This document shows, piece by piece, positions 3,410-53,675 of a DNA stretch of 64,000 bases (its first letter is position 1; every line of letters begins with the position of its first letter). Made by a program: the position numbers and the translations under genes. Under the pieces are notes generated by a model that worked only from the letters and a program-made list of their open reading frames with translations, did no database searches and was not told where the DNA came from. The stretch spans positions 832,001-896,000 of the forward strand of contig CM000430.1 in the NCBI GenBank assembly GCA_000165345.1, read 5' to 3'.

Positions 3410-4216
3410 TTAACTAGCCAAAGATAAAAACATTGCGGAGCTGTGAGCGAAGTTAATACGCTTAGCAAAAGCATGAGTACCCGGTACCAATAAAGACATG
3501 AAGTAGGAGCTTGACTCAAACTTGAATATTTGGGGGATAGAACTAACATTGAAAGCTAGCTCTCTGAGACCTTTAAAGTTAGAAATGACACATCCTGAAG
3601 ATACATTTTCAATGAAGAGGATCAGATTATATGCTATTAAATCGTTGAATGAAACTTTGTTACCCATCAAAAATTTGTGTTCTGTAGAAGCGAAGGTGTC
3701 ATTCAAAACCTTCAAAGTTTGATAAATATTCTCATTAGTAAGAAGTTTTGAACAAGTCAAAGTCTTTGAGGAATCTAAAATCTTGGTAGTTTTCTTAATG
3801 TAACTCCTAGCAATGGAAGAAAGCTGGATTGAAATTGTATGTAACAACAAATTCTTTGAAAATAGTTCTTTGTTATATGAAAGAATAATATAACTTAAAA
3901 CTGCTTCATCAGTACTGAGGTATTGAACATTCTTTGCAGTATCGCTGATCATTGGAATTGATGGTTGAAGGAATCCAGACTTGATAATTTCTTTGAAAAG
4001 CTTAGCCTGAGATTCTGAATCTTTCTTAAATCTAGTTTCAGTAAATGCAAGACCAGAGTAAACAAGAACAGTTCTAACCAAATGATTGCTATCTAGTTCC
4101 TTAGTTGAATAGAGTGTAATTGGAACAATACTTGCCTTGGCTTTTACTGACTCCACTGAAGTAGAGAAAAGTGCAAGAAAAGCAAAAACTGAAGCTAATA
4201 AACTTATGGACTTCAT
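3410..4216 (-). CDS. secreted protein, N-terminal signal peptide MKSISLLASVFAFLALFSTSVESVKA
   Basis: The ORF-track start at 4222 is a TTG. The first ATG is at 4216 and is followed by a classical signal peptide. I recognise no other domain. Confidence 0.6.
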   Translation of the reverse strand: MKSISLLASVFAFLALFSTSVESVKAKASIVPITLYSTKELDSNHLVRTVLVYSGLAFTETRFKKDSESQAKLFKEIIKSGFLQPSIPMISDTAKNVQYLSTDEAVLSYIILSYNKELFSKNLLLHTISIQLSSIARSYIKKTTKILDSSKTLTCSKLLTNENIYQTLKVLNDTFASTEHKFLMGNKVSFNDLIAYNLILFIENVSSGCVISNFKGLRELAFNVSSIPQIFKFESSSYFMSLLVPGTHAFAKRINFAHSSAMFLSLAS

Positions 4217-4656
4217 ATTCAACTAATTCTTGAATTGAAATTTTTTAAATGAGATAAATTGCAAGAGAATATTTCAAAAATTTCGGTAATAATCCACAGT
4301 TTTATTAGTTACTTCTTCGAGAGAAATAAGATTTCCCGCCTTATAATTTATGAATAGTGGTCTTTATCATTACGTATATTTTGTGAAAAAGATAACTTTG
4401 ATTAATTAGGGTATCTAATTGAACAAAAGACATTAGACTGAAGTATAATGATACTTAATTACTACTATATATTTTTGATGATGATCTACTTTCAAGTAAC
4501 TTTAACTTACTATCTCATGATAATAAATATAAATATGAATGGCGGGAAATGTTTGAAATTAAGTAAGCATGTATAAAAATAATATATAATATAATAAAGA
4601 AGATATTGAAATATTTCCTCGGAAGATCGTTTTACTGTGATTATATTGTTAAATTT

Positions 4657-6045
4657 TTAAAAGTATTCTCCACTACTTCCGCTTTGCTCACTACTATCAT
4701 CTTGACTTTCTGAGGTACTTTGATCTTGAAGATCATCAGTATTTTGGGAATTATCCGTACTATCTTCAGTTTCATAGTATCCATCAGTGCCAGAACTTCC
4801 ACTTTCTTCAGATTTGCTATGTTCGTATCTTGATGATTCCTCATCTGTTTCTGAGAGATTACTACCAACTGAACTTTCAACTTCTTCGTCTTTATCTGAC
4901 TGTGTTCTGTTGGTTGATTCACTCTTGCCAGCTTCTTGACCTTTATCATTAAAGCTTATATGTTCGTTGTCTGTACTATTTGGTTCATTAAGTACAGATA
5001 CAGATTTAAACCTTTTTTTTTCTTTATACTTTCCACCAATTATAGAATCTTTAATGTTTATAGATTCAAAATCCATGAACTCTGATTCAGATAACATACC
5101 AGAAGAACTTTCAGAAGAATCAAATATATCCAGTTTCTCATCAACAATTTCATCTTCAATTACTGAATCTCTACTTTTAATGCTAGACTCAGATTCTTCT
5201 TTAAATAATTCATCAATTGCAACGATTTGACTTTCAGGTGCATTAGTGGAGTAGTCTATTCTTATTTCTCTTGGCTGTGGTTCTATCTGTGGCAATGGCA
5301 TTTTAACATAGTTCATATGCATGGGAAGAACTTTTGGAACTAAGAGTAAAAGTGAATCGTGTTTTAATATAAATTTTTCTGTTTCTTCAATAAGTGGAAT
5401 TTCATTTTCATCGAGGTATTCATCATATGAACTATATGGAAGAATATATTTAACAATTTCTGATTCTTCATCAGATTGAGAAGTTTGATTTTGATCAGCT
5501 GCAAGAGCTGATTTAAAGCTTTCTCCTAAATTAAAGCTATTACCCAAAATACTATCCGCTTCATTTTCGAATTTTGAGGAATAGAAGTCATTGAGCCTTA
5601 ATCCAGAATTGGGTTCTGAACTGGTTTCTTCAGTGAACTTCCGTAGTTCTTCAAGTTCTTCTTTCTTGAAACTTAATGGGTCACTTGCTGTAGCAAGTTT
5701 TCTACATTGTTCTTGATAATTTTTTAATCTTTTTTCAAAAAAAAATTTTACTATTTTATCTTTCATAGTGGCTTTGCCATCCAACATATTACGTACTGAC
5801 TTTTTACATTTTTTTAAATTATAACGTACATTAAATGCAACAGATTTACTTTCAAAAATTTCATCAATCCACGTGATTATCAACTTTTGTTGTTCTTGTT
5901 TCAACCTTCGATGATCCTTACAAATTTTCAAAATATTATATGAAAATTCAGTCATATCTTTCTGTATTTGACCTAGAATCCCCGATCCAGACAACAGGTA
6001 AAATATATAAAGAAAGAATGTTAAGACTTTCCGATTACGGAACAT
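4657..6045 (-). CDS. secreted acidic Ser/Asp/Glu-rich protein (462 aa) with N-terminal signal peptide
   Basis: ATG at 6045 followed by the hydrophobic leader MFRNRKVLTFFLYIFYLLSGSGILG. The C-terminus is low complexity (SESQDDSSEQSGSSGEYF). Confidence 0.6.
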   Translation of the reverse strand: MFRNRKVLTFFLYIFYLLSGSGILGQIQKDMTEFSYNILKICKDHRRLKQEQQKLIITWIDEIFESKSVAFNVRYNLKKCKKSVRNMLDGKATMKDKIVKFFFEKRLKNYQEQCRKLATASDPLSFKKEELEELRKFTEETSSEPNSGLRLNDFYSSKFENEADSILGNSFNLGESFKSALAADQNQTSQSDEESEIVKYILPYSSYDEYLDENEIPLIEETEKFILKHDSLLLLVPKVLPMHMNYVKMPLPQIEPQPREIRIDYSTNAPESQIVAIDELFKEESESSIKSRDSVIEDEIVDEKLDIFDSSESSSGMLSESEFMDFESINIKDSIIGGKYKEKKRFKSVSVLNEPNSTDNEHISFNDKGQEAGKSESTNRTQSDKDEEVESSVGSNLSETDEESSRYEHSKSEESGSSGTDGYYETEDSTDNSQNTDDLQDQSTSESQDDSSEQSGSSGEYF

Positions 6046-12158: not shown

Positions 12159-14078
12159 ATGGCTAATAGATTTCTTATTTTGAATATCATCTTATTGTTA
12201 ACCGGGGTATTATCACAAGATTCATTAAGGTAGTGTTTAAATTATTATAAAAACCATTTATGTATCATTTGATTACAAAATGGTTTAAAATTCTTTTTTT
12301 TTCTTTTTTAACTGGGGTTTATCTTTTAATATCTTATTTGAATTTAAATAAATTCTAGATCATCAAATGAATCTTTACAATTACTTGACGAGGCTATTAA
12401 CACAAATGATACATTCTTTGATACAAATAATGATACATCATTACATCAAAGTAAGTTTTCCTTAGTTTATTATTAATTAATTGAATAATTAACAAAAAAA
12501 ATTAAAGATTTCACCTTAGATAAAGTAAAAATTAAAAATAAAATAAATAGCGATAATGAAAATAAGAACAAAACCAGCATTAAAACCAAAATTGAAGAAG
12601 AATCTGATGAATCTTTGACAAATTTGGAGTATAATTCCGAAAATAATAATACCAATTTTATAATGCCTTTCCAAAATAATATTTTAAAACTAATTGATCA
12701 TCTTAGCATTAATATTGGAAAGATCAGTTTTGAAGGACTTAAGAATGTTATTAAAGGAAAATACGTTATTAATCCAATTATTAGCACAGAAAAAGAAACA
12801 ACTTTGGTAGATCAGAATACTGTGAGCGATGGTTTTGAAGGGGATTCATCAACTTCTTCTAATGGTACTGCTGAGCCAAAACCAGAATTATCTAAATATC
12901 CTGATGTTACTGTATTACCAACAGAAGTCTTCATTCCAGAAAATACCAAATCTTTTGAACCTGCTCATGCAAGAGGAGCTCTTGGTGTTATGCCATTGCC
13001 AATGCAACTACCACCACAACCACCAGCATCTCATTCTGAAGACAATTCACAAATTTCAACAATTATTATCAATGAATCAAACAACCATGGTGAACATATT
13101 CCCGAGACTGAAACAGCTTCAGAACAAGGTTTTGGTGGAAGGGATGATACATATGGACCAAATAATAAATATCATCATCATCATCATCATCATCATCCTT
13201 CTTATAATCATCATCATAAACATCATCACCAACACCGTCCACACCATCCACCATTTAATGGAGACAATTCCAGTTCATCATCGACATCAACTTCTTCTAC
13301 CTCTACTTCAACTTCAACTTCAACAACATCAACATCAACATCAACAACTACAACTACAACTACTACAACAACTACAACAACTACAACTACAACAAACGAA
13401 GAAGTGAATGCAGTTAAAAATATTGCTCAAAAGAGAAATTTAAGAAGATTAAAGAAAGTAGTTTTAGAAGATGAGGAAGATGAAGATGATGAATATCTAG
13501 ATGAAATTGAACAAGAAAGAGAAGACTCTAAAGAGGGTAATCAAGTAACTGAAGTTGGATTACAAATAACAATGCCTATAATAACTTTAATTGCTTCAGA
13601 AACTAAATATTGCGGAAATGGAGTTGAATATTTGAACGAATTATCTCTTAAATTTAGAGAAACAATTGGAAAATTATTTGATTTATCTTATGAAGAAGTA
13701 TTTATTGTTAAAATGACTTCTACAAATAAATCATTTGTAAATTGCAATGACAAGAATGCAGTACAAAAGGACAAATCTGGAGTTAAATTCACCTTTGTGT
13801 AAGTTTGTTTGATATATTTAATAACATTTCTAACATCAAATTTGTAGGATTGGAACAAAAATGGAAGGCTCACACATATTTAAAGTTTTGGAATTAGCAA
13901 TCAAGGATAAAGAATCTTTCCTTGTAAAAGAATTTGGAAAGGTAAGTTTTGTTCATAAAGAAGAATTTAAAGAAAATAATTCTTCTTATTTAAAATGATT
14001 AATTTTATTATTTTTACTAAATTATACTGAAAATTTCAATAGATTGGCTTCATTCAAATCTCTAAAAATATCGCATAA
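12159..14078 (+). CDS. secreted mucin-like glycoprotein with poly-His and poly-Thr/Ser tracts, 5 exons (12159..12229, 12359..12450, 12508..13798, 13848..13941, 14043..14078)
   Basis: Exon 1 encodes the signal peptide MANRFLILNIILLLTGVLSQ. All four introns have GTAAGT/GTAGTG donors and T-rich..AG acceptors, and the phases are consistent (2/1, 1/2, 2/1, 0/0). The large exon encodes HHHHHHHH..HHHKHHHQHRPHH, a (S/T)n block and about 20 consecutive Thr. Confidence 0.55.
13186..13405 (+). repeat. CAT (poly-His) then TCA/ACT/ACA (poly-Ser/Thr) trinucleotide repeats
   Basis: Visible in the sequence, inside the mucin-like exon 3. Confidence 0.85.
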
Positions 14079-14799
14079 TTTGGTTTCATCATACGCATTA
14101 ACATAACTAATATGATGACCCCTTCCCACAAGAAATTCCCGCCTAAACGAGATGTCAATAACTACATATTTTTTTTTCTAATTTTATCGAGAAGAAATTG
14201 ATTTTTTTAAAAAATTGTTTTCATTCTCAATAAATTGAAAGTTTTTTGACGTAAATTTGTGTCCAAATAACTCAATTATTTTAGAAATGGCTTTTTAAAT
14301 AAAATATTGTGGGTTAATGTTGATTTGTTTGTTTATGTTTTCTTTTTTAATTAATTACTGTATTCCAAATTCGTGATGCTACTATTACATGCATTTTTAA
14401 TAGGAATAGTTGTTAAAGAGTATTATTAAAGCCCGCCCCACATATAGAAACATGCATGTATTTAAAGCGCCAAATATGAAGGAATATTTAAAAAAAAAAA
14501 AATAAATGCGAGTGCATAAATATAGTAAAAATGGTAATTTGAACAATAAAATGAAATAAGAAGCAATATATATAAGTATTAGCCAAATATTTAATTGTAG
14601 ATCTTCAATTATTAAGAGTTGAATTAATTTAGTTATAATGGGAGTGTAAGGTAAAGAATAAGAGAAAAAAGAAAATAAACAAAAGTAAAATAAAATAATT
14701 ATATTAAAAATAAATTAAATAATAAAAAAAAAAATACTGAAATAGCATAATTTATAAAATTATATTAAATCTCAACATCCATAATTCTTATTGATCCTC

Positions 14800-16501: not shown

Positions 16502-17264
16502 TTTTCAAATCACTTATATTAACGTTAAATTCTTCACTTCTTGATTTAACCTTCTCTAAATCTTCTTCTATCACCCTGAAATCCACTTTTCTATTGATTT
16601 CTCCTTATTCCCTTTTAATTAGTATTTTTATTTTACACCAAATTTCACTTTTGCATATAAATTAATAATTATTGGATCTTCTTTAAACAATTTTAGCTAT
16701 TAACAAAAGCCCGCCTAATGGTAACTTAAATTGCATGTACTATTGGTAGCAACAATATAATAATAATTACATTAATATTAATATTAGCAAAAATTGATCA
16801 GTATCTCACTAGTACTTTGAAAAACTAAATTCTTAGTTAAGTTTATGAAACTTTAGAATTTATCACTGAATTAAAGTAAAAATTGTTTTCATTGCCACTT
16901 TTTTTCTGAATATATATTTGTTTATTAATAATAAAAAAAAATTACAGCCTATTTAACATGCATGCAGATTTGAATTAAAAATAAAATAGTTGCCAAATTT
17001 TAATAATACTAAAATTCGAGATTGAAATGCTGTATATTTTAATTTGTGTTACATAAATATATATATTTCAATGATAAATATATATAATTTCATCTTGATT
17101 TTAAGCTAGCCAAATTTCAATGCAATTTTCAGGGTAATAATGCATTATCTCTGTATGCTAGATAACAAAGTTAAATCCCTAATGGAATTAATTGTCTAAT
17201 TAATACTAAATAGTAATAGTTGTATTATTATCAAAGACAAAATTCAGTTTTTATTAAAGCAAAT

Positions 17265-19148
17265 ATGAGTAAAAGTTCTTCTAAAGAACTTAAAGTAGTA
17301 CACTCCAAAGAAAAGCTAAATAATAAGTTATTTCATGAGTTTAATTCCCATACAATTTCTACAAATGATTCGAGAGATAATGAAGATTCTTTATTAGCAA
17401 TTTCATCTATTAATGCAATACCTACATCACTTAAAATATCAAAAAAACATACAACTTCAAAAATAAATAATCAAATTGTCAATAACTCTTATAACTCAGT
17501 TATAGGAGAAGAAAATGAAGAAAAAGAATACTCTTATAATAAATTTAAGAGTCAAGAGTTAGATCATCAAGAAATCAAAAAGAGTAATACAGGACAAAAA
17601 AAAAAGAAATGGCATCAAAAATTCAAACTTTCTTTTTTACTTTTTAGTTATAACAAGAATATTGAAAAAAATAAAGTTAAGTCTATTAAAGACAATTCAA
17701 ATATAAATAAAATGGAACAAAACAAAGAAAATATGAATAGTTATAACCATAAGCATAGTTGGACTTTACCACTTAAAGATTTTACTTCAAGTACGAAAAA
17801 AGAAAATTTTGAATCAAATAACTCCAATTTGAGTATTGGAAACAATCATATTGCTTTTTCTACTCAAACTTGTTCATCTTCATTACCTAAATCTTTGAAC
17901 TCACATATATCTTACATTCCCACAACCAAATCTCCTACATCATTTACAAATACTTCTTATATATCATCTTCACCATCGTCATCATCATCTTCATCCTCCT
18001 CATCATCATCTTCTTCTTCCTCAGCTTCATTTTTAACACCATCATCATCAACTCAGTTATTTTCACCAAAAATGTCTTTAATATCGTCTTATATTACTCA
18101 AGAAGAAGAAGTATTAGAAGCAGGAATTTACGATAAAGATAATTTAGGTAGGAATGGTTTTAGTTTAAGAAGTATTACTGGCGATAGGGAAAGTATTATA
18201 TATGATGAAGACTATGAGTCTTATTTAGAAAGTACAATTAAAGAACCATTTTTGGAACCACAAAGAAGAGAATATATTGGAAGGAAGACTCTAGTTTTGG
18301 ATCTAGATGAAACTTTAATTCATAGCTCATTCCAGCCAATCAGAAATGCTTCTTTTACTATCAATATTGAGATTGATGGAGATTATTACGATGTATACGT
18401 ATTAAAAAGGCCAGGAGTTGATAAATTTTTGAATATTGTTTCAGCAATATTTGAGGTTGTTATTTTTACTGCTAGCTTATCAAAATATGCTAATCCACTT
18501 TTGGATAGACTTGACCCAATGAATAAATGCCCTTATCGTCTATTTAGAGAGAATTGTACTGTAGAGGGAAATTCCTATATCAAAGATTTATCTAAGCTTG
18601 GAAGACCTCTTAAAGATATAATAATTATTGATAACTCACCTATATCATATATTCTTCAACCTGAAAATGCTATCCCAATTTCATCATGGTAAGATTTTAA
18701 TTTTCACCTTAATTAATTAACTTAAGCTTGAAATCTTTAGGTTTAGTGACGAAAGTGACACTCAGTTGATTGACCTTATTCCTCTTCTTGAAGTAAGTTT
18801 ACTATCGATTCTAATAATAATATGAAAAAAAGTGTGAGAGTAGTATATATAATTTGTAACTCATTAAAACACTATTCAATAGATACAGCAATATATATAT
18901 GTTGTATTTATAGTCTTTTGCATTATATTAGAATCATCATTAATATATATATAATTCTAAATTACTCATTAAAGATGATTGCTCAAGGACATCCAACCTT
19001 ATCTACTTCATTTGGAAGTATAAGTGATTATTATATATCTGATAATAGTAATAATAAAGAGCAGACAGAACTTATTGAATTTAGCAGTTCTTCTACAATC
19101 TATGTTGAATCATCATTTTATCATCCAAAAGAACTCTACTATTATTGA
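17265..19148 (+). CDS. NIF/FCP1-homology CTD small phosphatase-like protein (HAD family), 3 exons (17265..18688, 18741..18792, 18975..19148)
   Basis: Carries the catalytic [10 protein letters not shown] (DxDxT) motif and the downstream NIF-domain blocks ([37 protein letters not shown]). Exon 2 encodes the conserved tail [18 protein letters not shown]. The first ATG is at 17265 (track start 17220 is TTG). The N-terminus is Ser-rich. The third exon is a frame-compatible proposal only. Confidence 0.65.
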
Positions 19149-19220
19149 CTTTACTCAATAAAATCTACATTAATTTAATATAATATAATTGATTTACAAT
19201 GGGTTCTACTAGTTTCCTCA

Positions 19221-21605
19221 CTATTTTATAAAGTTCTTTATTAAATTACTAACTGCAATAATTTTATATGCTACATTCATATACTTATTTAGTTGTATTT
19301 TACAATATTTACATGATTCCTTTGTTTTTTGTATTTCAATACTTTCCTCATCGTCTAAATCTGATGTATCCTTATTCCATTCTTTTACCAATTTATTAAA
19401 TATCTAAAAGTTTAATTAAAATAAAAATTAATCAAATATTTGTAAATGTTTAATAATTATTGTTTCTTTCCAAGTGTAATTCTAGGCTTGCACAAAATTG
19501 ACAAAAAGCCACTTTTGGCGCCAATGTTATATAAATATATATATAAAATTGCACAAATGCATGCAAACCTGAATTAATGAAAAACTTACCCCAGAAAAGT
19601 CTTCAGGATCTTTCGACTCTTTAATCACCTTTTTCATTCTAAGATAGCAGTAAATACTAATTTCATCAGGAATACCCTGTAAATATAAATTTTGTTAGTT
19701 ATTGTTAATGAAAAAAAAATTGTGGCTTCCCGCCAAAAAATGCAATTTACATGCAATATAGAATAAAGAGGGAAAACCAATAGAATAGTGGGGTAGATAT
19801 TATAAATATAAACTTACGCTTGGGAATGCGTTGTTAATTGAAAATTCACTTGTAGCAGATTCTACAATTGCTTCAAACATATCATCTTCTTCATTTCCTG
19901 TATAATCATTTTCTTCAGCACCATGAAAATGGTCACTATTTGCACATTTTGCAAAATCTGATGATAATTCAGAGCTATCTCTTTTGCGTTTCCCGCCTGT
20001 TCCTGTTGTAGAACCACCAAAAGAATTTTGTTGACCTCTAATTATTTGACCTGTCAATTTTGAATAAAGAGTGTATAGTTTCTCAATAATTAAGTCTGTA
20101 TTGATTTTAGAGGGTAAACTATTATTAGGATTTGATTGTTCTGAATATTCTAGTAGTTTAAAATCTATTTCATTAATTCTTTGTATAATTGCAAGAATAT
20201 AGTGAATATAATTTAGTTTAGGAATTTCATCTTGGCTTTTTGAGAAAGTATCAATAATCTGATTAAAATCAACTTTTTGAATGTTGAAATCTTCATTTGT
20301 ACAACCAAAAATCGATTCTTTGTGATTATTAACTTCATTAATAAGATCCTGACAGTTTTGTAATAAATTATTAGAATCTTGCATTGGAATTTTTGAGTTT
20401 TCAAGATTAACATTAGAATTCTGTAAAAAAGATATTCTAAGTGCATTTTCAACTAACGAGGAAATAATATCATTCAAAATAAAGCTGAAAAGTTGAAGGG
20501 AATTAGATGGTATTTGAGAAACTTTAGTTTCTTTAAGCCCATTATTATATGTAGTATTCCAAGTAATTGAGAGCCATTCCTGCAGAGTGTTTATAGAAGG
20601 TCTAAAATTCTTTTCTCTTAACATTGCAAATTCTTTATAAATCTCTGCTGACATATTTTTGGTTCTTATATCTCTTAGTTTAAGTCGATCTTCAAACCTT
20701 TTATCAATATTAATCATCATATTTGAGGGTAAATTATTATTATTATTAAAGTCAACACCATCATTTTCATCTAAATCATTTATTGCATCATCTTCTTTAA
20801 CTACTGAAGAAATACCTGTAATATCAGGATCTGTACCTTGAATCATACCATTTTCAGTATTTGAATTCATTCCTACATGTCTATGTGCTGATTTATTAAT
20901 TAATGTGTCATAATCAAATTTGCTTACTTCTTGTTTGTAGTATTCACTAAAATGTTTCTTTATCATACTATTTGTAAGTTTATTTGAAACTTTTTTTTTC
21001 TTTGAGTTGTTAATTAGGGAATTCCAAAATAGTGATATCCAAATATTTAAATAGGATTGTACTAACCTTACACTTTTTTCTTGACAATCTTTATTCTTTA
21101 AAAAAGGTCTGATATCACCTGCAATATACATTGTTCTAGATATTACAGAGTTTATCGGAGAAAATGTAGATACCATTAATTCTTGAAATATCTTATTTGA
21201 GTATAAGGATTGTGATGACAAACAAATTTCATCTTGATTTCCTTTTTCTGATTTTATAGTTGTTTCCTTATTTGCTTCTATTTCTAAAGGAATACATCTT
21301 GGATGAACAATTGAGGTTTCATTTTGGTTTTGACCCTTTATTGGAGAAGACGAAGAAATTTGCGAATCATCATTAACAATTTCAGTTTTTGATTTGTTAG
21401 GAGTGTTTTCTTTTGGATCTTCACTAACAGAATTGTTATTTTGAGTTGAGTTAGCTTTTTTATTTGATAGAATTGCAATCAGTTCTGACTTAATTCCAGT
21501 CGGAAGCTCACTAATAATTTTTGGCCAGGAGCTTTTTGGACATTTCAATAATTCCTCATGAATTTGAGAACTATTTAAGCCTTGAAACTTTGATAAATCT
21601 GCCAT
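19221..21605 (-). CDS. hypothetical protein, 3 exons (21605..19818, 19676..19590, 19403..19221), 690 aa
   Basis: The 601-aa ORF ends at a stop created by a GTAAGT donor. Two downstream exons are open in frame, bounded by GTAAGT..ACAG and GTAAGT..TTTTAG, and all junctions are phase 0. Both putative introns carry promoter-type motifs. Confidence 0.45.
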
Positions 21606-22252
21606 TTATTATTAAATGTTTTTAACTATCTAACTAAAACATTCCAATCAGAATTCAATTAATATATCAAAACATATTCAATAATTAGATTCCTTCCAAT
21701 TCTTTTCATATAAACGAAAATAAACAATGTGAAGTAATGATATGAATACTTTCTGCTTTATCTAAAAATTCTTTCTTTTTACTTTTTATTTTTTTTTAAA
21801 TATTATTAAACTTTTCTGTATATTATTTATTTCTAATATTAGTAAACTTTGTTTAATTGTTTTGGTCAGATATTACTTTTTAACCAGTAAAAATAAATAA
21901 AAAAAATAATTATTCCAATCTTTTCAATAATAATTAACGTCGAATTATTGCAAATAGATATATAAATTTCAAATGATTAATGTTAAAGTCTAAAACTTAA
22001 TATTATTATTGATTAAAAAAAAAAAAATTTTATATAAATTTATTTATATATAATTATAATAAATTTATATATTAAATATTGTTTCCTATACCGGTGTTTT
22101 ATGTACGCCACGTAATTGATTTTTTTTTTTAATTAATAAATATTCACACGTGTACAAATAATATATTTATTTAAAAAAAGCCCAGATATTTTTATTGTTA
22201 GAAATGAAGCTTTTTATTGTTAATGAAATAGATATATGATGTATTATTATAA

Positions 22253-23332
<1,080 letters not shown>

Positions 23333-43695: not shown

Positions 43696-44343
43696 TTTTT
43701 ACCAAATATTAAAGGGTAAAAAAAAAAAAAAAAGTATGCTTTCTTTCTTTATAATTACAGTTTGTTTTTCATTCCCACGCTTATAATGTAATTATTTTAT
43801 TGAATTCTGTGTCAAAAAAATAGGATAATTATCAAACAGTCTTGACCTGTTGTGCATGTATTTTCTGATCATATGCATTTGCATTACCGCTTCTTGCACC
43901 ATTATAGTTTTTCAATTTTATATTGTAGAATAACCCACAAAGGCGTCAATGTCGTATTTACCATCTTTTAAATTAAATTTTGGATATTTGAGAAGATTGA
44001 AATTATATTTTAATAAATATTAAAGAATTGTTTGAAGTTTGTCTTTTTTTTTAAATAAAAAGTTACCATAAAACTTTCCTTTAATAGTTTTATAATTTAG
44101 TATTTACTAATACTAAATTAAATTTGAAACTATTTCATTTTCTATTCTTTTTTTTCCTTTCTTTTTTTTCTGTTGGTAAAAATCTAAAATAATACTTTTG
44201 ATTTAAAATCTGACCATTCTATATATTTAACTAATATATAATTTTTTTTTTTTTTAAATTAATATTTTCAGATTAATTTTTGTGTAACCGCCCCACACGC
44301 AATTAGTCAAATATATAAATACAGAAAAAAAAAAAAAATGCAT

Positions 44344-44413
44344 TGGCGCCAAGTTGTCATTATATTATTAATTCTTGTAATTAAAAAGAAAAAAATTGAG
44401 AAAATGTGGCGCC
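44344..44413. promoter_or_regulatory. pair of TTGGCGCCAA / GTGGCGCCAATGCA sites in a divergent promoter
   Basis: Between the 43695(-) and ERH(+) starts. CCGCCCCACACGC lies at 44290. Confidence 0.5.
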
Positions 44414-44879
44414 AATGCAATATTATTAGTTATATGGTCTTCCCACATTATTAAAGTAATATTAACAAATAAATATTATTAATAAGTAAAAAATTGGAGG
44501 AATTAACCGCATATTGTGTTAATGATGGGAAATTTTTAATATAGATAATAATTTAAAAACAATCACAATTTTCATTATCATAAACCAAAGAGGGAAGAAA
44601 TAATATCTTTGAAAAAAAATAATAATAATAAAAAGCCTCTTGGATTATTGTTTTTTTTTTTCTTCTCTTTTTCTTATACATCAAACTAGAAGTCAAAAGA
44701 AAATAAACAAAATTCAAATAATTTACTTGCTTAAATATAAATTAAGTGGAAACCTGTCAGATTAAATAATAATAGTATTCCTCAAAAAATTATTTAAAGT
44801 TATACTATTTCTCAATTTTTTTTTTAATTCTTTCTACATATTAAAGTTGTATATTTTTTTCAATTAAATTATTATAATA

Positions 44880-45338
44880 ATGGCACAAAATCAAGGACTT
44901 CATACTCTTTTATTAATTCAATATTCGAATAATATTAGTACAAGATCTTATATGGATTATGACTCTGTATCTCAAGCTGTTGATGGTAAGATGAATTTCT
45001 TAATTTATAAATAATTTAATTAATACTTAAAAAAAATTTTTTATTTTTCATATATTTTCAGGAGTTTGTCAAATTTATGAACAAAGCATAAAATGTGCAT
45101 TTTCTAATTTAAAAGAAGTTACGTACAGCATTGAAGACTTAGTAAAATACATTAACTCACTTTATGATATATGCATGCTCACGTAAGTTAATAATACCTG
45201 AATTTTTGATTTTATGTATTATATATTACTTGATGAATTTTTAGTCGGGATGGAACAAATCGCAGATATATTCCTCACGATCGCAAGTGGATTATTGACC
45301 AGATTTATTTAAAAATGAAAAGAAGAGCAGCTAACTAG
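44880..45338 (+). CDS. ERH: enhancer of rudimentary homolog (ERH), 3 exons (44880..44985, 45062..45182, 45245..45338), 107 aa
   Basis: Not in the ORF track. Spliced product MAQNQGLHTLLLIQYSNNISTRSYMDYDSVSQAVDGVCQIYEQ...TYSIEDLVKYINSLYDICMLTRDGTNRRYIPHDRKWIIDQIYLKMKR aligns along human ERH ([36 protein letters not shown]...YNKDWIKEKIYVLLRR). Introns are GTAAGA..TTTTCAG and GTAAGT..TTTTAG, with phases 1 then 2. Confidence 0.8.
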
Positions 45339-46101
45339 AAATTTAGATAGGAAATCAGAATAATAAATATTAGTATTTTCAATATATTATATATATATTC
45401 TATATTTTGCACATACTGAGTCTCTACAACCTTATAATAGTAATAGTAATAATATTAAAAATAATTATTATTATTATCATTATTGGCCTATTAAAATTCG
45501 GATTAATTAAATAATAAAACTTTATTGGTCATGAAAAATAAGATTATATTGATAACTAATATTAAAAAACAATTTACTCTTGCCATTATGCCTAATATTT
45601 CTAAATATACTTAATTTTTTCCATATTTATTATTATCATCTTTGCATGCATTCATTATTGTTATTATTTAATAATTTTCATGTGGATAAATTTTATTAAT
45701 TTCTGTACCGGCATAATAGTAATTACGTAATACCGGAGTGATAGTAAATTAATTGCATGCATTAAAAAAAAATTTTTTTGATTGCATGTGGATTTGAATT
45801 AAAAAAAATCATATCAAATATTAATAATAATAATAAATTATAAGTAATTGAAATGTCAAATTGATATAAAGCTGATTAAAGAGGGGCAAGAAAAGACTGA
45901 AATTTATTAAACAAATTTCAATATATATAAGAGAAAGATAAATTAGAGATAGAAAAGGAAAGAGGAGAGAAAAAAAACAAATTAAAGACTTGATTTTAGT
46001 AATAATACTATTATTGAAATAAAGAAAAACGTCTAATTTTTAAATAATAATATTTACATACAAATATATATAATATTTATTTATAATATAAATTTAATTT
46101 A

Positions 46102-46813
46102 ATGAAAATGAAGGTAACACTTTTATTTGGATTACTTGGATTATTTAGTGCAGTGAAAGGTGAAATGCAACAAATTAGAAAATATAATTATGGCAAAGAT
46201 TTATGTGAATTTGATATGAATAGTGTATTAAAAAGAATTCCATCATTAACAGATTTATCAACTGGAGATATTGTTCAAACACATTTATCTAATGAAGAAT
46301 TTGAAATTTCAAGTAATGGTGTAAGTTTTTTCATTCTTTCTTTATTTAATAAAATTTTCTAATAATTTTTGTTTTTTATTGAATAAATTTTAGAAACAAA
46401 TTAAATCCATTTCATTAGATGAAATAATAACTCCATTAGAAACTACTCCAAGTACTGATCAATGTTTTACAATCACATATGGAAGTAATGGAGATATTGA
46501 GACTTTATGTTCAGATTCTATTGGTGCTAGAAATTATATAATGAAGAAAATTACAATGAGTGTAAGTTTTTAATAATTATAAAAAAAAAAAAAAAGAAAG
46601 AAATAATTAATTCATTTTCTTTATTAATCTTAGATTCTTTGTTTACATTTGGGGAAAATGAGAACTGAGATTTCTGGAATTTCTCCATTAGAACAGCAAG
46701 CAAGTATGGAATTACAAGGAAATATTCCTGAAGAAGGTACTATTACTGTTCGTTTGGAAGGTATTGATGAAATTCCTAATATTGAAGTTGTAACAAATGA
46801 TGTCAAAAAATAA
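46102..46813 (+). CDS. small secreted protein, 3 exons (46102..46320, 46394..46561, 46634..46813), 188 aa
   Basis: Signal peptide MKMKVTLLFGLLGLFSAVKG. Both donors are GTAAGT, acceptors TTTTAG and TCTTAG. All junctions are phase 0 and the frame stays open to the TAA at 46811. No recognisable domain. Confidence 0.55.
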
Positions 46814-47267
46814 TAAATTTTAATATATAATGTGTATATAAACAAGAATAAAAAGTAAAAAGGGCATAATAATTACATTAAGAAAAAATAAATAAATACA
46901 ATAATCATAAATTTTCTTAAATTTATATTTAAAATATAATAATTAATAGAAATCTTCTTTGTTAATATTAAGTCCCTGTATATTTATATACAAAATATCA
47001 ATTTCTAAACAATGTATTTTTTTGAATTCTCTTTCATTCTCTACAAATAAAGAATTAATATTAATTTCACAAATTCAGTAAATATATTTAATATTCGTTA
47101 TGTTAAACAAAAGCTACAGTAATAACTAGAGGGTTTAAATGAGGGGAAAATAACTGGAATAAATAATTAATATAAATCAGAAATATTGAAATGTATCATC
47201 TGAGGATGATTTTTTTTTTTCTTCTTTTGTACCAATATTATTAAATTAGTACTGTGATTAATGCTGC

Positions 47268-50200
47268 TTATTGTTTTTGCAAGCTCTTTTGTTTTGAAAT
47301 GTAAAGCTCTTCCTGAGAAGTCATATAGTTATAATAAGCAGAATTCCCAACGAGGTTGGATCTTTCTCCAACAACTACAACTGAGCCATACTGTGCAGCA
47401 ATTGCTGCTCCACCTAGAACATCCTCCACATCAATATCCTTCAAAATATCTGCTAGTGCTTTGGCTTTTTGTTTATGAACTTTTTTGACCCACTTATGCT
47501 TTCGAAGGTCAAAAACATCTTGGATTAAACAATTCAATCTTGTTGAAATAGATGTATTCTGTAATTCTCTTAGTCTTCCAAACCATTGATCCACAATCAT
47601 CTGTGATTTCTCATTAGAATCCAAGTAATATCCTGTAGTCATAATTAATTGGCAAAGACATTCTACAGCATATTCATCAGGATTCTCTTGTATCATTACT
47701 AGATCAAATACTAGTTCATTCAAACTTCTCATTGGGAACATCTTTCTAATGAAGAGTTCTCCAATCAGTCGGATTATCCCCAAAACATGTAACTTTCGCT
47801 TCCTATACAATATTGCCAGCTCCTCTGAATCGTATTTCTCACGCTCTTCATCTGTTGGAGTCATATTTCGAGGCATATTCTTAAACTCTTGTTCACATCT
47901 TGCCAACAGGGCTTTACTAAAAGCAATTGTTGACTTTCCATCTTTATTCACAAGAACTGGACTCCTCCATTTAAGTATCTGACATAAATCTGCATACATC
48001 TCCGAGAAATCAGGCTCTGTTATTGCTTTATCCAATACTTGCTTCACTAATTCCTCTAGTTCATCCACATTCTTAATCTCATCAATACATACAGCGAGCT
48101 TCTCTGCTATTACTGTAAACTTCTCCACAGTTATTTTATTCAGTAGACTCTTCACAGCTCTCCTTACCGTTTCTAAGGAGTCAACAGTCTGGCCTCCATG
48201 TAAACTTCGTCTCCACGGTCCAACTACTCCGCTGGTACCGCTGCTGCTGCTACTACTACTACTAGTACTGTTGCTATTACTATTACTATTGCTACTACTA
48301 CTGCTGCTAGTAGGAGTTATATTATTACCATTGCCACTACCACCAGTATTATTAGAACTTCCCTCTTTATTATCTGAAGCTGGAATTGACGATTCTAATT
48401 TCTCTCTTCCTTCAATATCTCTGTTTGTTTTTAGGTCGTTCTTCTCTGCAACGATAGAGCTTTCATTAATATTGGTATTGATATTAAAGTCAGCGGATTT
48501 GTTATTTCCATCCAAGTATTCAGAACCCTTGCAAGATAACTTATTACTCATAGAATCTGATCCAGTTGTCACTTTTGCAGAACCAGTATTCTCCGATTCA
48601 TTTGAAGCTGTGGATAACTTCTTTCTAGAATCAACTGATTTCCCTTTCTCTAAACTCATTTCTATATTTGAGGGGTGCTGAGTAACTCCACTTTGGGCCT
48701 TATTTGATATGTTCTTGGACTCATTTTCATTTGGTGAAGCTGATGAAAATACATCTCCGTTATGTGTCTTCTGTTGATCCCCAGTTACATATTTAGGTCT
48801 TTCTTTGGGATGCCCGCCAACTTGGTGACCAGTGGACATTTGACCTCCATTAGTCCCTCCTGATGGGTTGTTGATATTCCTCAAATTCTTATTAAACCTC
48901 TTCTTGTTCTTTTTTTTTTTTAGATCTTCCGAAGTTGTACCACCTACTGCATTCTGCCCATACATATGACCTCCGCTACCCTCTGTTGAATGTTTTGGAT
49001 GAACAAAATTCTGGTTTGGCCCGCCATTGCATGCGTTTGTACCCTTTCCCACATTCTTTGGTCCAGAATATCTTCCATGGCGCCCATATGTGTGATCCCC
49101 GCCATTTTGATTTTTCCATGAACCACCAGTATTATTAGAGAAGTTGTGATTATGACTGTATTGGTTGTGATTATTTGAAGGAATATTTGATCTCAAATTA
49201 TGATCAGTATTGGATTTTTGAGTATTAGAGTAGTCATCTTTAGTCATATCCTTATGTTCTGCAGCAAAATCAGAATTATTGCTCTGTTGTGAATGGGATG
49301 GTTTTTGTGATTGAGCCTGAGGCTGTTGTTGAGTTATGGGCTGGTTCTTTTGTCTTTGTTCAACATTAGCTGTAAGATTATGTTCAGATTCGGAACCTAT
49401 TATTGTTGTCGTTGTCGTTGTTGTCGTTGCTGCTGCTCCAGACCCTGGCTTCCCATTTGAAAAATTCTTGTGTAAAACTGTTCTTGATTCCTTGAGAGAT
49501 GCGTCATTATTGTCTTTTTGGTTAACTCCATGTGATCCTCCTTTACCAATACTGTCCTTGTGCTGATGGTAGTTTGAGTGCTCTCGAGCGCCATGCTGCC
49601 TGCCATACCCATAGTAGTGAGAATCCCCTCCTCCTCTTCTATTTGGAGTTGCATGAAAATCCTTTCTAGAGGTGCTAATACCATTGTTGTTTTGAGAAGA
49701 ATAGTGTTTTCCTCCTTCCTCTTTTGTTGTGGTAGTATGAGGCGTAACATTAGTAATATTGGAAGTATTCGTTGTTGATGATATTACAGTAGTATTTGCG
49801 GGTTTAGATGAGGTAGATGTCGCTACTACTTCTGAGCTAATACTAGTGGTATTTTCAATAGCAGTATTATTGGAAGGGCCATTTTGGAATTGCTGCTGAG
49901 ATTTGTTGTGCTGGTTAAGTTTAGATTGAGAGTTATGCAAAGTCCCTCCTGCACCTCCACCCGAGTTAGAGGATGGGGGAGGTTGTTTTCTATTCAGATC
50001 GTATCCGCCTCCGGAAGAACTTCCATGATTATGTTGTCTATTTCCTGAGTATCCGTATCCTCTTCCTCTTCTATCTTGGTTGTATCTACCCTCATGGTGG
50101 CTGTTATGGCTCGATGACGAGTATGTCTGGTGCTTTTGTTGGAAGTTAGATGATATCTGTCTCTGACTAACTTGTTTGGGATGTTGGGTAGTATTTTGGC

Positions 50201-53399: not shown

Positions 53400-53675
53400 A
53401 TTTTTATATACTTATAAATAAATAAATTTTTTTTTTTAAGTTATTTGGGCTTAAATGCTCTAAATACGTCAATTGTACATTTTCCAAATTCGTCAATAAA
53501 TCTATAAATAATTATTTTATATATTTATGTATGTATAAATATATATTGAAATAAAAACAAGTGTTATGAAATTTTAACAAAATTGTATATGCAAAAATAA
53601 GTGGCCTGAATTGCATGTAATTTATTACACAAATAGGCGGGAAATCCCAAATAATTGCATATATGTTATTACAAC

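What the first reader, a model, noticed from the sequence alone, without database searches (positions are those of the whole stretch)
19221..19817. Promoter-type motifs inside putative introns: extended 3' exons or a nested small gene
The 601-aa minus-strand ORF stops at a TAA that is part of a GTAAGT hexamer. Two further exons (19590..19676 and 19221..19403) are open in frame, with phase 0 at every junction and perfect GTAAGT donors. However, intron 1 contains TTGGCGGGAAG and TGCATG, and intron 2 contains CATTGGCGCCAAAAG and GCATGCAT. These are exactly the elements seen in promoters elsewhere in the window. One possibility is that the motifs are intronic enhancers. The other is that the exons form an independent gene of about 75 aa (MKKVIKESKDPEDFSG/IFNKLVKEWNKD..CKYCKIQLNK..) with its own promoter in the 3' region of the larger gene.
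Basis: inference. Interest (0 to 1): 0.6.

Follow-up and report, generated by a model that had tools for sequence, protein, structure and literature searches.

The report
Conserved promoter-type motifs inside two introns
The region is the already-annotated 3' end of a three-exon Cryptosporidium parvum gene, but its two introns carry transcription-factor binding motifs (E2F and ApiAP2 type) that are conserved across eight species, so they are probably a working regulatory module whose output is still unknown.

Summary
The window is Cryptosporidium parvum chromosome 2. The 601-aa ORF is exon 1 of cgd2_3830 / CPATCC_0026970. Both small exons, both GTAAGT donors and both intron positions are kept in all 12 Cryptosporidium species examined, with intron lengths that shift the frame, so splicing is obligatory. 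That part is correct but already known.

The intronic motifs are real and not chance. Each intron holds an ApiAP2-type site (TGCATG / TGCATGCA) 20-40 nt upstream of an E2F/DP-type site (TTGGCGGGAA / TTGGCGCCAA). The pair is expected in at most 2 of 10,000 shuffles per intron. The pairs persist in eight intestinal-clade species while the rest of the intron diverges. They are absent from five outgroup species.

Species with intronic sites lack any E2F site upstream of the gene, and four outgroups have one there. A second gene in the window (FABP) has the same module in its last intron.

An independent 76-aa gene is not supported: its Met is Leu/Ile in the outgroups, and there is no extra constraint. 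No antisense lncRNA is catalogued here. Most likely this is an intragenic promoter-like module, but function needs RNA 5'-end and chromatin data.

The parts
19818..21605 (-). Exon 1 of cgd2_3830 / CPATCC_0026970 (596 codons). The old 601-aa ORF is this exon read through into intron 1.
   Evidence: The old Iowa II model XP_626567.1 is 601 aa and the newer models are 685 aa.
19988..19997 (-). E2F-like GGCGGGAAAC inside exon 1 (codons GGC GGG AAA CGC of GGKRKRD). This is the third site of the 3' cluster.
   Evidence: GGCGGGAAAC is kept in C. parvum, C. meleagridis, C. ubiquitum and SRR18693150. It is altered in chipmunk genotype I, C. canis and SRR31860986.
19677..19817 (-). Intron 1, 141 nt, GTAAGT...ACAG, phase 0.
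   Evidence: The position is conserved in 12 species, with lengths of 54-157 nt.
19750..19755 (-). AP2_1-type hexamer TGCATG in intron 1.
   Evidence: TGCATG or CATGCA is present in intron 1 of all eight intestinal-clade species.
19726..19736 (-). E2F/DP-type site TTGGCGGGAAG in intron 1, flanked by T6 and T9 runs.
   Evidence: GGCGGG is conserved in intron 1 of eight species, and it is the best-conserved internal block of the MAFFT alignment.
19590..19676 (-). Exon 2, 29 codons (GIPDEISIYCYLRMKKVIKESKDPEDFSG). It contains the in-frame ATG at 19637..19635 (Met610).
19404..19589 (-). Intron 2, 186 nt, GTAAGT...TTAG, phase 0.
   Evidence: Lengths in other species are 80-281 nt.
19558..19565 (.). 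Palindromic AP2_1 site TGCATGCA in intron 2.
   Evidence: It is conserved in C. parvum, C. meleagridis, chipmunk genotype I and C. ubiquitum. SRR18693150 and C. canis carry variants.
19512..19526 (.). Palindromic E2F/DP site within CATTGGCGCCAAAAG in intron 2.
   Evidence: GGCGCCAAAA is present in C. parvum, C. meleagridis and C. ubiquitum. Chipmunk genotype I has GACGCCAAAAG, SRR18693150 has AACGCCAAAAA and C. felis has CTCGCCAAAAG.
19481..19573 (-). Possible long-range RNA stem in intron 2. Its arms are TTCAGGTTTGCAT (19573..19561) and GTGCAAGCCTAGA (19493..19481), and it loops out the E2F site.
   Evidence: The fold z-score is -3.47. RNAalifold on 5 species gives 13 pairs, mostly with one-sided changes and only 1 compensatory change. 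This is weak evidence.
19221..19403 (-). Exon 3, 60 codons plus TAG (IFNKLVKEWNKD...LNKYMNVAYKIIAVSNLIKNFIK*).
19149..19220 (.). 72-nt spacer between the stop codons of the two convergent genes.
17220..19148 (+). Convergent neighbour, an NIF/FCP1-like phosphatase (CPATCC_0026980 by position). Its introns are 18690..18740 (51 nt) and 18792..18974 (183 nt), and neither has an E2F or AP2_1 motif.
   Evidence: Pfam NIF E=9e-49. Sequence read. Motif lists.
21606..22252 (.). 5' intergenic region shared with the divergent gene at 22253..23332. It contains no E2F 6-mer and no AP2_1 hexamer.

Best explanation
The interval is the 3' end of a three-exon gene, C. parvum cgd2_3830 / CPATCC_0026970. The gene encodes a 685-aa protein with an SPT3-like histone fold.

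Each of the two introns carries one ApiAP2-type site followed 20-40 nt later by one E2F/DP-type site. This is the same two-motif module that marks promoters across this genome. The modules are kept by selection in the intestinal Cryptosporidium clade.

I commit to this reading: the introns act as an intragenic, promoter-like platform bound by E2F/DP and ApiAP2 factors and probably free of nucleosomes. Transcription from it would start inside the gene, either in the sense direction through exons 2 and 3 into the convergent phosphatase gene, and/or in the antisense direction. On this reading the platform is not an independent protein-coding gene.

Shown: the gene structure, motif identity, non-random placement and cross-species conservation. 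Inferred: factor binding, open chromatin, and any transcription start.
For: Gene structure:
- The spliced model is 100% identical to P0013 (685 aa).
- Exons 2 and 3 and both intron positions are conserved in 12 species, with intron lengths that change the frame.

Motifs:
- 18 matches against 0.4 expected for TGGCGSSA, and 73 against 21.7 for TGCATG.
- E2F 6-mers are ten times denser outside long ORFs.
- 24 of 38 E2F sites are paired with AP2_1 within 100 nt.
- The chance of both motifs falling in one intron is at most 2e-4.

Footprint:
- The pair GGCGGG plus TGCATG/CATGCA is present in intron 1 of C. parvum, C. meleagridis, chipmunk genotype I, C. ubiquitum, SRR18693150, C. canis and SRR31860986.
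- The C. canis and SRR31860986 introns are otherwise unalignable with C. parvum.

Literature:
- E2F and BGCATGCAH are the top motifs within 100 nt upstream of lncRNAs, which cluster at the 3' ends of genes (PMC7840661).

Positive control in this window: Cp_lnc_95 starts at 4685(+), about 140 nt downstream of TGGCGGGAAA at 4540.

Second case: the last intron of the FABP gene (53679..53502) carries TTTCCCGCC plus CATGCA. Its C. canis orthologue carries GCCGCCAAAAA plus TGCATGCATTGCATG.
Against: - No transcript-start or chromatin data for this locus could be examined.
- The Li et al. 2021 catalogue lists no lncRNA for CPATCC_0026970 or CPATCC_0026980. 18-mers from exon 2, exon 3 and the 3' end of exon 1 are absent from its FASTA file. 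Two other lncRNAs of this window are found there.
- Compared with the density in noncoding DNA generally (1.46/kb), two sites in 327 nt is only mildly unusual (Poisson P about 0.08, my calculation).
- All motif-bearing species are the closest relatives of C. parvum, so conservation may reflect one gain.
- The orientation of GGCGGG relative to genes is not consistent in the window, so direction cannot be read from the sequence.
- The complementary loss of the 5' E2F site fits the enhancer rival better.
Confidence: 0.42

Rival explanations
1. Downstream enhancer of the host gene. The intronic E2F/AP2 sites regulate cgd2_3830 itself from its 3' end. They would have replaced an ancestral E2F site in the 5' intergenic region.
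For: The distribution is complementary. C. parvum, C. meleagridis, chipmunk genotype I, C. ubiquitum, C. canis and SRR31860986 have intronic sites and no E2F 6-mer in the 575-650 bp upstream region. C. xiaoi, C. ryanae, C. andersoni and C. serpentis have no intronic sites and exactly one upstream E2F site.

In the window, about 16 of 19 5' intergenic regions hold at least one E2F 6-mer, and this gene's region is one of the three that hold none (my count).
Against: The pattern amounts to one or two evolutionary events and is confounded with phylogeny. C. felis has neither kind of site.

From my own knowledge, E2F sites elsewhere act close to the promoter. No enhancer acting from about 1.9-2.1 kb downstream is known in Cryptosporidium, and the review PMC12246861 contains no occurrence of 'enhancer'.

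The FABP gene has E2F sites both upstream and in its last intron, so complementarity is not general.
Confidence: 0.22
2. Nested protein-coding gene. A transcript starting in intron 1 is translated from Met610 (ATG at 19637..19635). After removal of intron 2 this gives a 76-aa protein identical to the C-terminus of the large protein.
For: - The ATG lies about 90 nt downstream of the intron 1 E2F site and has an A at -3 and at +4.
- Met610 is present in exactly the eight species that carry the intronic motifs, and is Leu or Ile in the five that lack them.
- Internal downstream monocistrons preceded by E2F-rich spacers are reported for C. parvum polycistrons.
Against: - Exons 2 and 3 are an integral, conserved C-terminus of the large protein genus-wide.
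- Met/Leu/Ile exchange is conservative, and the co-occurrence is a single phylogenetic event.
- An out-of-frame ATG (19666..19664) precedes Met610 in C. parvum.
- There is no extra synonymous constraint.
- Intron 2's module lies downstream of the ATG and has no plausible ORF of its own.
- No such protein is on record.
Confidence: 0.09
3. Antisense-lncRNA promoter of the kind catalogued by Li et al. 2021. The palindromic sites would fire on the plus strand and give an RNA antisense to exon 1.
For: The motif types and the 3'-end position match that class. Cp_lnc_95 in this same window is a working example.
Against: No lncRNA is listed for this gene or its neighbour in a catalogue built from 33 RNA-seq samples, although that catalogue does contain the two other lncRNAs of this window. 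The supplementary files were truncated when stored, but the chromosome 2 entries on both sides of the locus are present.
Confidence: 0.13
4. No transcriptional role. The conserved blocks would serve the intron itself (an RNA stem that shortens a long intron for splicing), or they would block read-through from the convergent gene, or they are slowly decaying neutral sequence.
For: - Intron 2 folds better than 199 of 200 shuffles (z = -3.47).
- A 13-pair stem between the TGCATGCA-containing arm and a conserved TGCAAGCCT block is kept in 5 species.
- Both motif-bearing genes sit tail-to-tail with a neighbour, with only a short spacer between them: 72 nt here, and about 40 nt for FABP by my estimate.
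Against: - The covariation term is not supportive (+0.4), and there is only 1 compensatory pair.
- Intron 1 has no structure signal (z = -0.24).
- The E2F sites are not explained by the stem.
- The motifs persist in C. canis and SRR31860986, where the introns are otherwise unalignable.
- There is no Rfam match.
Confidence: 0.14

Closest known systems
C. parvum upstream E2F/DP plus AP2_1 promoter modules (Oberstaller et al. 2013, PMC3734150; review PMC12246861)
   Same: The sequences are the same: [A/T][C/G]GCGC[G/C][A/T] or GGCGGG, and TGCATGCA. The pairing within 100 nt is the same as at 24 of 38 sites in this window, and so is the flanking T/A-rich context.
   Different: The known modules were defined in DNA upstream of start codons. 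These lie inside two spliceosomal introns, 1.9-2.1 kb downstream of the gene's ATG and 200-500 nt from its stop, and no gene follows them.
Promoters of 3'-end antisense lncRNAs in C. parvum (Li et al. 2021, PMC7840661), for example Cp_lnc_95 at window 4685(+)
   Same: The motif content is E2F and BGCATGCAH, and the position is the 3' end of a sense gene in a compact genome.
   Different: No lncRNA is catalogued at this locus. The Cp_lnc_95 E2F site lies in intergenic DNA beyond the stop codon, not in an intron.
E2F-rich internal untranslated regions and internal downstream monocistrons of C. parvum polycistronic transcripts (Xiao et al. 2025 preprint, 10.1101/2025.01.17.633476)
   Same: E2F sites lie inside a transcribed unit, ahead of a downstream ORF, so the same DNA could yield a long and a short RNA.
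   Different: Here the E2F-bearing spacer is removed as an intron and the two ORFs are fused into one protein. In the polycistrons the ORFs are separate genes.
Plasmodium falciparum var-gene intron promoter (my own knowledge, not tested here)
   Same: It is a conserved intron near the 3' end of an apicomplexan gene that carries promoter elements and can fire in both directions.
   Different: The var intron is far larger and belongs to a multigene silencing system. No promoter activity has been shown here, and the sequence motifs are unrelated.
SPT3 / SUPT3H, the TBP-binding subunit of SAGA (identity of the host protein)
   Same: A family profile matches the second histone fold of SPT3: yeast E=1.1e-6, K. 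phaffii E=2e-5, human SUPT3H E=3.5e-3. The match covers RLKxxDxRTxNMxxEEYxxF...W...F(L/I)xxxIVxSLxExAL.
   Different: The protein is twice as long as SPT3 and has no Pfam hit. The first histone fold was not demonstrated. The C-terminal 89 residues encoded by exons 2 and 3 have no counterpart in the match.

Membership tests
3'-terminal exons and introns of one spliced protein-coding gene | GT...AG boundaries with the local donor consensus, and an open frame preserved across the junctions | tested here: met
   There is a GTAAGT donor at 19817 and at 19589, with CAG and TAG acceptors. All junctions are phase 0 and the product is 685 aa with no stop.
3'-terminal exons and introns of one spliced protein-coding gene | Downstream exons conserved as protein in orthologues, with introns that cannot be read through | tested here: met
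   Twelve species keep an 87-nt exon 2 and a 183-192-nt exon 3. Intron lengths are 54-157 nt and 80-281 nt, they contain stops, and in several species they shift the frame.
3'-terminal exons and introns of one spliced protein-coding gene | Agreement with curated gene models | tested here: met
   The model is 100% identical to QOY42846.1 / CPATCC_0026970. The C. hominis, C. tyzzeri and C. meleagridis models are 683-684 aa.
3'-terminal exons and introns of one spliced protein-coding gene | Junction-spanning RNA reads | not testable with these tools
   No RNA-seq data are available here. The protein collection lists no Logan-derived copy of the spliced 685-aa product.
C. parvum E2F/DP cis-element | Sequence [A/T][C/G]GCGC[G/C][A/T] or GGCGGG with T/A flanks | tested here: met
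   The sites are TTGGCGGGAAG (19736..19726) and TTGGCGCCAA (within 19526..19512). The consensus comes from PMC3734150 and PMC12246861.
C. parvum E2F/DP cis-element | Located upstream of a transcription unit | tested here: not met
   Both sites are inside introns of a convergent gene pair. No gene or catalogued lncRNA starts downstream of them on either strand.
C. parvum E2F/DP cis-element | Conservation beyond that of neutral flanking sequence | tested here: met
   GGCGGG is kept in intron 1 of eight species, including two whose introns are otherwise unalignable. Per-intron chance values are 0.0004-0.13.
C. parvum E2F/DP cis-element | Binding by E2F/DP proteins, or open chromatin | not testable with these tools
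   This needs CUT&RUN, ChIP or ATAC-seq tracks.
ApiAP2 AP2_1 site (TGCATGCA) | Palindromic [T/C]GCATGC[A/G] core | tested here: met
   Intron 2 has the full TGCATGCA (19565..19558). Intron 1 has only the hexamer TGCATG followed by T.
Independent nested protein-coding gene (76 aa) | Start codon conserved wherever the ORF is conserved | tested here: not met
   Met610 is Leu in C. felis, C. xiaoi, C. andersoni and C. serpentis, and Ile in C. ryanae, although the exons themselves are conserved.
Independent nested protein-coding gene (76 aa) | Existence as a separate product or record, or extra constraint from overlapping functions | tested here: not met
   The only short record is an 80-aa gene-caller fragment of exon 3. 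Identity at synonymous codons in exons 2 and 3 is about the same as in exon 1.
3'-end antisense lncRNA locus (Li et al. 2021) | A catalogued lncRNA overlapping the gene | tested here: not met
   No entry exists for CPATCC_0026970 or CPATCC_0026980, and the 18-mer searches were negative. Cp_lnc_95 and Cp_lnc_96 from the same window were found, so the search method works.
SPT3 family (host protein) | SPT3-type C-terminal histone fold | tested here: met
   A profile of 12 sequences hits 6t9i_C (SPT3) at E=1.1e-6, 6tb4_D at 2e-5 and 8h7g_E (SUPT3H) at 3.5e-3. The Cryptosporidium-only profile gives E=0.008.
SPT3 family (host protein) | N-terminal histone fold, and a Pfam or structural match over the whole protein | tested here: inconclusive
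   There is no Pfam hit. The AlphaFold2 model has mean pLDDT 36.8, too poor for a fold search. The resemblance of TMYIAGD to the MMFVSGE motif of yeast Spt3 was seen by eye only.

The most novel reading that the evidence does not exclude
In Cryptosporidium's very compact, intron-poor genome, some 3'-terminal introns may be kept and enlarged because they double as internal promoters. The same DNA would be spliced out of the long mRNA and would serve as promoter and 5' leader for a short transcript. That transcript would either encode the C-terminal 76-aa module of the SPT3-like protein or run antisense into the convergent neighbour. This would be a spliced version of the parasite's polycistron and internal-monocistron arrangement. 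It arose once in the intestinal clade, together with loss of the 5' E2F site and gain of Met610.
Probability: 0.12. Interest if true: 0.65.

Novelty: new variant of a known kind. Interest (0 to 1): 0.4.

Why it matters
The gene-structure part only confirms current annotation, although it flags truncated models in several other species.

The motif part is a small, testable lead. Gene regulation in Cryptosporidium is poorly understood, and E2F sites are its dominant promoter signature. All published motif work that I could find looked upstream of genes or of lncRNAs.

Conserved E2F/ApiAP2 modules inside introns appear twice in one 64-kb window. In one case the usual 5' site is missing. This suggests that intragenic regulatory DNA exists in this genome and may help explain why particular introns are retained and are two to three times longer than their neighbours. 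If the host protein really is the parasite's SPT3, the locus also concerns a core transcription cofactor.

Tried and rejected
- Structure: the AlphaFold2 prediction of the protein gave mean pLDDT 36.8, so no fold search was run.
- RNA families: an Rfam scan of 19100..19950 found no match, so an intron-encoded snoRNA or other known RNA is not supported.
- Short-product search: a protein search with the 111 C-terminal residues, meant to find spliced or short products in RNA-derived assemblies, returned only one fragment.
- Literature: searches by gene identifiers (cgd2_3830, cgd2_3820, CPATCC_0026970, cpbgf_2003830) found nothing. A search for intronic promoters in Cryptosporidium found nothing relevant. 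The supplements of the Xiao et al. preprint are not held.
- Motif orientation: GGCGGG points toward the nearest gene in about 7 cases and away in about 5, so orientation cannot give the direction.
- Overlapping function: synonymous-site conservation showed no signal.
- 'Long intron equals motif carrier' was rejected: the phosphatase gene's 183-nt last intron has neither motif.
- Distant homologues P0028 and P0031 gave no useful PDB match on their own.
Full report
**Source and gene**

The window is AT-rich eukaryotic DNA (GC 20-40%). A search with the spliced product returned only Cryptosporidium proteins. The best was a C. hominis entry at 97% identity. Its 90%-identity cluster holds C. parvum proteins CPATCC_0026970 / CPHLJ_2g3830 (685 aa) and the old Iowa II model XP_626567.1 (601 aa).

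It translates without a stop to 685 aa and is 100% identical to the 685-aa C. parvum protein. So the 'extended 3' exons' reading is right and is already the current annotation. Only the 2004 model stopped at the 601-aa ORF.

**Check of the observation**

All coordinates, the two GTAAGT donors, the phase-0 junctions and the four quoted motif strings are in the sequence. One detail is wrong. The 601-aa ORF reads GTA-AGT in frame and stops at the TAA at 19802..19800, not at the TAA inside GTAAGT. The nested ORF from Met610 (ATG at 19637..19635) is 76 aa.

**Is the splicing real?**

I fetched the orthologous locus from eleven further Cryptosporidium genomes or assemblies. These were C. meleagridis, chipmunk genotype I, C. 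ubiquitum, C. canis, C. felis, C. xiaoi, C. ryanae, C. andersoni, C. serpentis and two unnamed Logan assemblies.

Every one has an 87-nt exon 2 and a 183-192-nt exon 3 encoding clearly homologous peptides. All have GTAAG donors and AG acceptors at the same codon positions. Intron lengths range over 54-157 nt and 80-281 nt. The introns contain stops, and in several species they change the reading frame, so the exons can only be joined by splicing.

Several public models are truncated at the read-through stop or after exon 2: chipmunk genotype I (598 aa), C. xiaoi (538), C. ryanae (555) and C. canis (615). The C. ubiquitum model uses an acceptor 12 nt too far downstream.

**Are the motifs more than chance?**

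- TGGCGSSA occurs 18 times (12 sites) against 0.4 expected, and TGCATG 73 times against 21.7.
- With the broader published core ([CG]GCGC[CG] or GGCGGG) there are 38 sites. Their density is 0.14/kb in long ORFs and 1.46/kb elsewhere.
- 24 of the 38 sites have a TGCATG/CATGCA within 100 nt, so the pair is the usual promoter module here. This matches Oberstaller et al. 2013.
- The only E2F-type sites inside this gene are the two intronic ones and a third, GGCGGGAAAC, in exon 1 at 19997..19988.
- Shuffling each intron gives both motif types together in at most 2 of 10,000 trials.
- Against the density of noncoding DNA in general, two sites in 327 nt is only mildly unusual (Poisson P about 0.08, my calculation). 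The stronger argument is therefore conservation.

**Phylogenetic footprint**

In intron 1 the pair TGCATG/CATGCA plus GGCGGG(A/C) is present in eight species: C. parvum, C. meleagridis, chipmunk genotype I, C. ubiquitum, SRR18693150, C. canis and SRR31860986 among those fetched. In a MAFFT alignment with mean column identity of 60%, GGCGGGA is the best-conserved internal block. The C. canis and SRR31860986 introns are otherwise unalignable with C. parvum.

Intron 2 across species:

| Species | AP2_1-type site | E2F-type site |
|---|---|---|
| C. parvum, C. meleagridis, C. ubiquitum | TGCATGCA | GGCGCCAAAA |
| chipmunk genotype I | TGCATGCA | GACGCCAAAAG |
| SRR18693150 | variant | AACGCCAAAAA |
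| C. canis | TGCATGCG | none |
| SRR31860986 | none | GGCGGGAAAC, near the 3' end |
| C. felis | none | CTCGCCAAAAG (half-site only) |

C. xiaoi, C. ryanae, C. andersoni and C. serpentis have short or extremely AT-rich introns with no motif at all. The motif-bearing species are the closest relatives of C. parvum by protein identity. The pattern is therefore consistent with one gain that has since been maintained.

**What do they do?**

The sequence alone cannot say. Four observations bear on it.

(a) Published motif signatures. In C. parvum, E2F plus poly-T is the signature of ATAC-seq peaks. Of 984 peaks, 888 are upstream regulatory regions, and more than half of those are bidirectional. E2F and BGCATGCAH are the top motifs just upstream of antisense lncRNAs, which cluster at the 3' ends of genes. 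The intron 1 site is flanked by T6 and T9 runs.

(b) The method finds a true case in this window. Cp_lnc_95 of Li et al. starts at 4685(+), antisense to the ORF at 4657..6045, about 140 nt downstream of TGGCGGGAAA at 4540. Cp_lnc_96 starts at 50005. Between these two entries the catalogue lists nothing for CPATCC_0026970 or its neighbour, and 18-mers from exons 2 and 3 and the 3' end of exon 1 are absent from its FASTA file. A robust antisense lncRNA is therefore unlikely. A sense-strand internal transcript would not have been called by that pipeline.

(c) Complementary distribution. The six motif-bearing species with enough upstream sequence have no E2F 6-mer and no AP2_1 hexamer in the 575-650 bp 5' intergenic region. 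The four species without intronic sites have exactly one E2F site there. C. felis has neither. In this window about 16 of 19 5' intergenic regions have at least one E2F site (my count), so the empty 5' region is unusual. This favours a role in regulating the host gene. However, it is one or two events on the tree.

(d) A second example. The FABP gene (54614..about 53441, minus strand; annotated as 282 aa in C. hominis) has two short introns of 65-76 nt and a 178-nt last intron (53679..53502). That last intron contains TTTCCCGCC and CATGCA. The C. canis orthologue has GCCGCCAAAAA plus TGCATGCATTGCATG in an otherwise unrelated last intron. That gene also lies tail-to-tail with a neighbour, deoxyhypusine synthase. 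The convergent phosphatase gene's own 183-nt last intron has neither motif, so intron length alone does not predict the module.

**The nested-gene model**

Met610 is present in exactly the eight motif-bearing species and is Leu or Ile in the other five. This is suggestive but rests on the same single branch of the tree. Several points count against the model:
- The exons are an integral conserved C-terminus of the large protein everywhere.
- Synonymous sites are no more conserved than in exon 1.
- An out-of-frame ATG precedes Met610 in C. parvum.
- Intron 2's module has no ORF to serve.
- No such protein is on record.

I rate this model at about 0.09.

**RNA-level alternative**

Intron 2 folds better than 199 of 200 shuffles (z = -3.47). 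A 13-pair stem between TTCAGGTTTGCAT and GTGCAAGCCTAGA is kept in five species. It shows one compensatory pair and no positive covariation term. Intron 1 shows nothing, and Rfam finds nothing. A splicing 'zipper' stem may coexist with the DNA motifs, but it does not explain the E2F sites.

**Host protein**

Pfam finds nothing. A profile of the Cryptosporidium family hits yeast SPT3 at E=0.008. After adding distant relatives from the 1.84-billion-protein library, the profile hits yeast SPT3 at 1.1e-6, K. phaffii Spt3 at 2e-5 and human SUPT3H at 3.5e-3. All matches fall over the second histone fold. The gene is therefore probably a divergent SPT3-like SAGA subunit. The AlphaFold2 model was too poor to use.

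**Verdict**

The three-exon gene is certain and already known. The intronic motif pairs are real, non-random and conserved, so they are probably functional binding sites (about 0.75).

| Reading of their function | Weight |
|---|---|
| Intragenic promoter-like platform | about 0.4 |
| Downstream enhancer of the host gene | about 0.2 |
| No transcriptional role | about 0.15 |
| Dedicated antisense-lncRNA promoter | about 0.13 |
| Nested 76-aa gene | about 0.09 |

Interest is moderate. It is a new location for a known regulatory module, seen twice in one window, and it can be tested with data that already exist.

Noticed in passing
window 19221..21605 (-), residues about 300-395: The 'uncharacterized' host protein matches the second histone fold of SPT3/SUPT3H: yeast E=1.1e-6, K. 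phaffii E=2e-5, human E=3.5e-3 with an expanded profile. It is probably the Cryptosporidium SAGA Spt3 subunit. UniRef names two orthologues 'Dilute domain-containing', which Pfam does not support.
   Followed up: partly
window 53502..53679 (-): The last intron (178 nt) of the fatty-acid-binding-protein gene carries TTTCCCGCC plus CATGCA. The C. canis orthologue (L012, about 3472..3628) has GCCGCCAAAAA plus TGCATGCATTGCATG. The gene is tail-to-tail with deoxyhypusine synthase. This is a second case of the same phenomenon.
   Followed up: partly
window 21606..22252 and the equivalent regions of L001-L010: The distribution is complementary. Species with intronic E2F sites have none in the gene's 5' intergenic region. 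C. xiaoi, C. ryanae, C. andersoni and C. serpentis have exactly one there and none in the introns. C. felis has neither.
   Followed up: yes
window 19988..19997 (-): An E2F-like GGCGGGAAAC lies inside coding sequence (GGC GGG AAA CGC = G-G-K-R). GC-rich glycine codons are kept in C. parvum, C. meleagridis, C. ubiquitum and SRR18693150 despite the AT-rich genome.
   Followed up: partly
window 4540..4715 (+): The published lncRNA Cp_lnc_95 (CPATCC_0027053) starts at 4685, antisense to the ORF at 4657..6045, about 140 nt downstream of TGGCGGGAAA at 4540..4547. Cp_lnc_96 starts at 50005(+), antisense to the ORF at 47268..50975.
   Followed up: yes
window 19635..19637 (-); exon 2 of L001-L011: Met610 (RMKKVI) occurs only in the eight species that have the intronic motifs. 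It is Leu or Ile in C. felis, C. xiaoi, C. ryanae, C. andersoni and C. serpentis.
   Followed up: partly
window 19481..19573 (-): Intron 2 folds unusually well (z = -3.47). A 13-pair stem loops out the E2F site and is kept in 5 species, with only one compensatory change.
   Followed up: partly
L004, L005, L006, L007 (host gene); L001; L012 (FABP): Public gene models are truncated or mis-spliced. The chipmunk genotype I, C. xiaoi and C. ryanae models end at the read-through stop in intron 1. The C. canis model stops after exon 2. The C. ubiquitum model drops IFNQ by using a later acceptor. The C. canis and C. felis FABP models lack the last exon.
   Followed up: yes
window 18690..19148 (+): The NIF-type phosphatase gene ends with a 51-nt intron, a 51-nt micro-exon ([17 protein letters not shown]), a 183-nt intron without E2F or AP2_1 motifs, and a last exon. 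Its stop codon is only 72 nt from the stop of cgd2_3830, so the two 3' UTRs must overlap or be very short.
   Followed up: partly
window 43696..47267: This stretch of about 3.5 kb is very AT-rich (GC about 0.20) and has no ORF of 110 aa or more. It has two palindromic TGGCGCCA sites at 44344 and 44407. What it encodes was not examined.
   Followed up: no
window 13803..14799: The space between two convergent ORFs holds two CCCGCC sites (14138, 14432) and several TGCATG hexamers (14388-14458). These are promoter-type motifs with no obvious gene to serve. Unrecognised exons or an unannotated transcript are possible.
   Followed up: no
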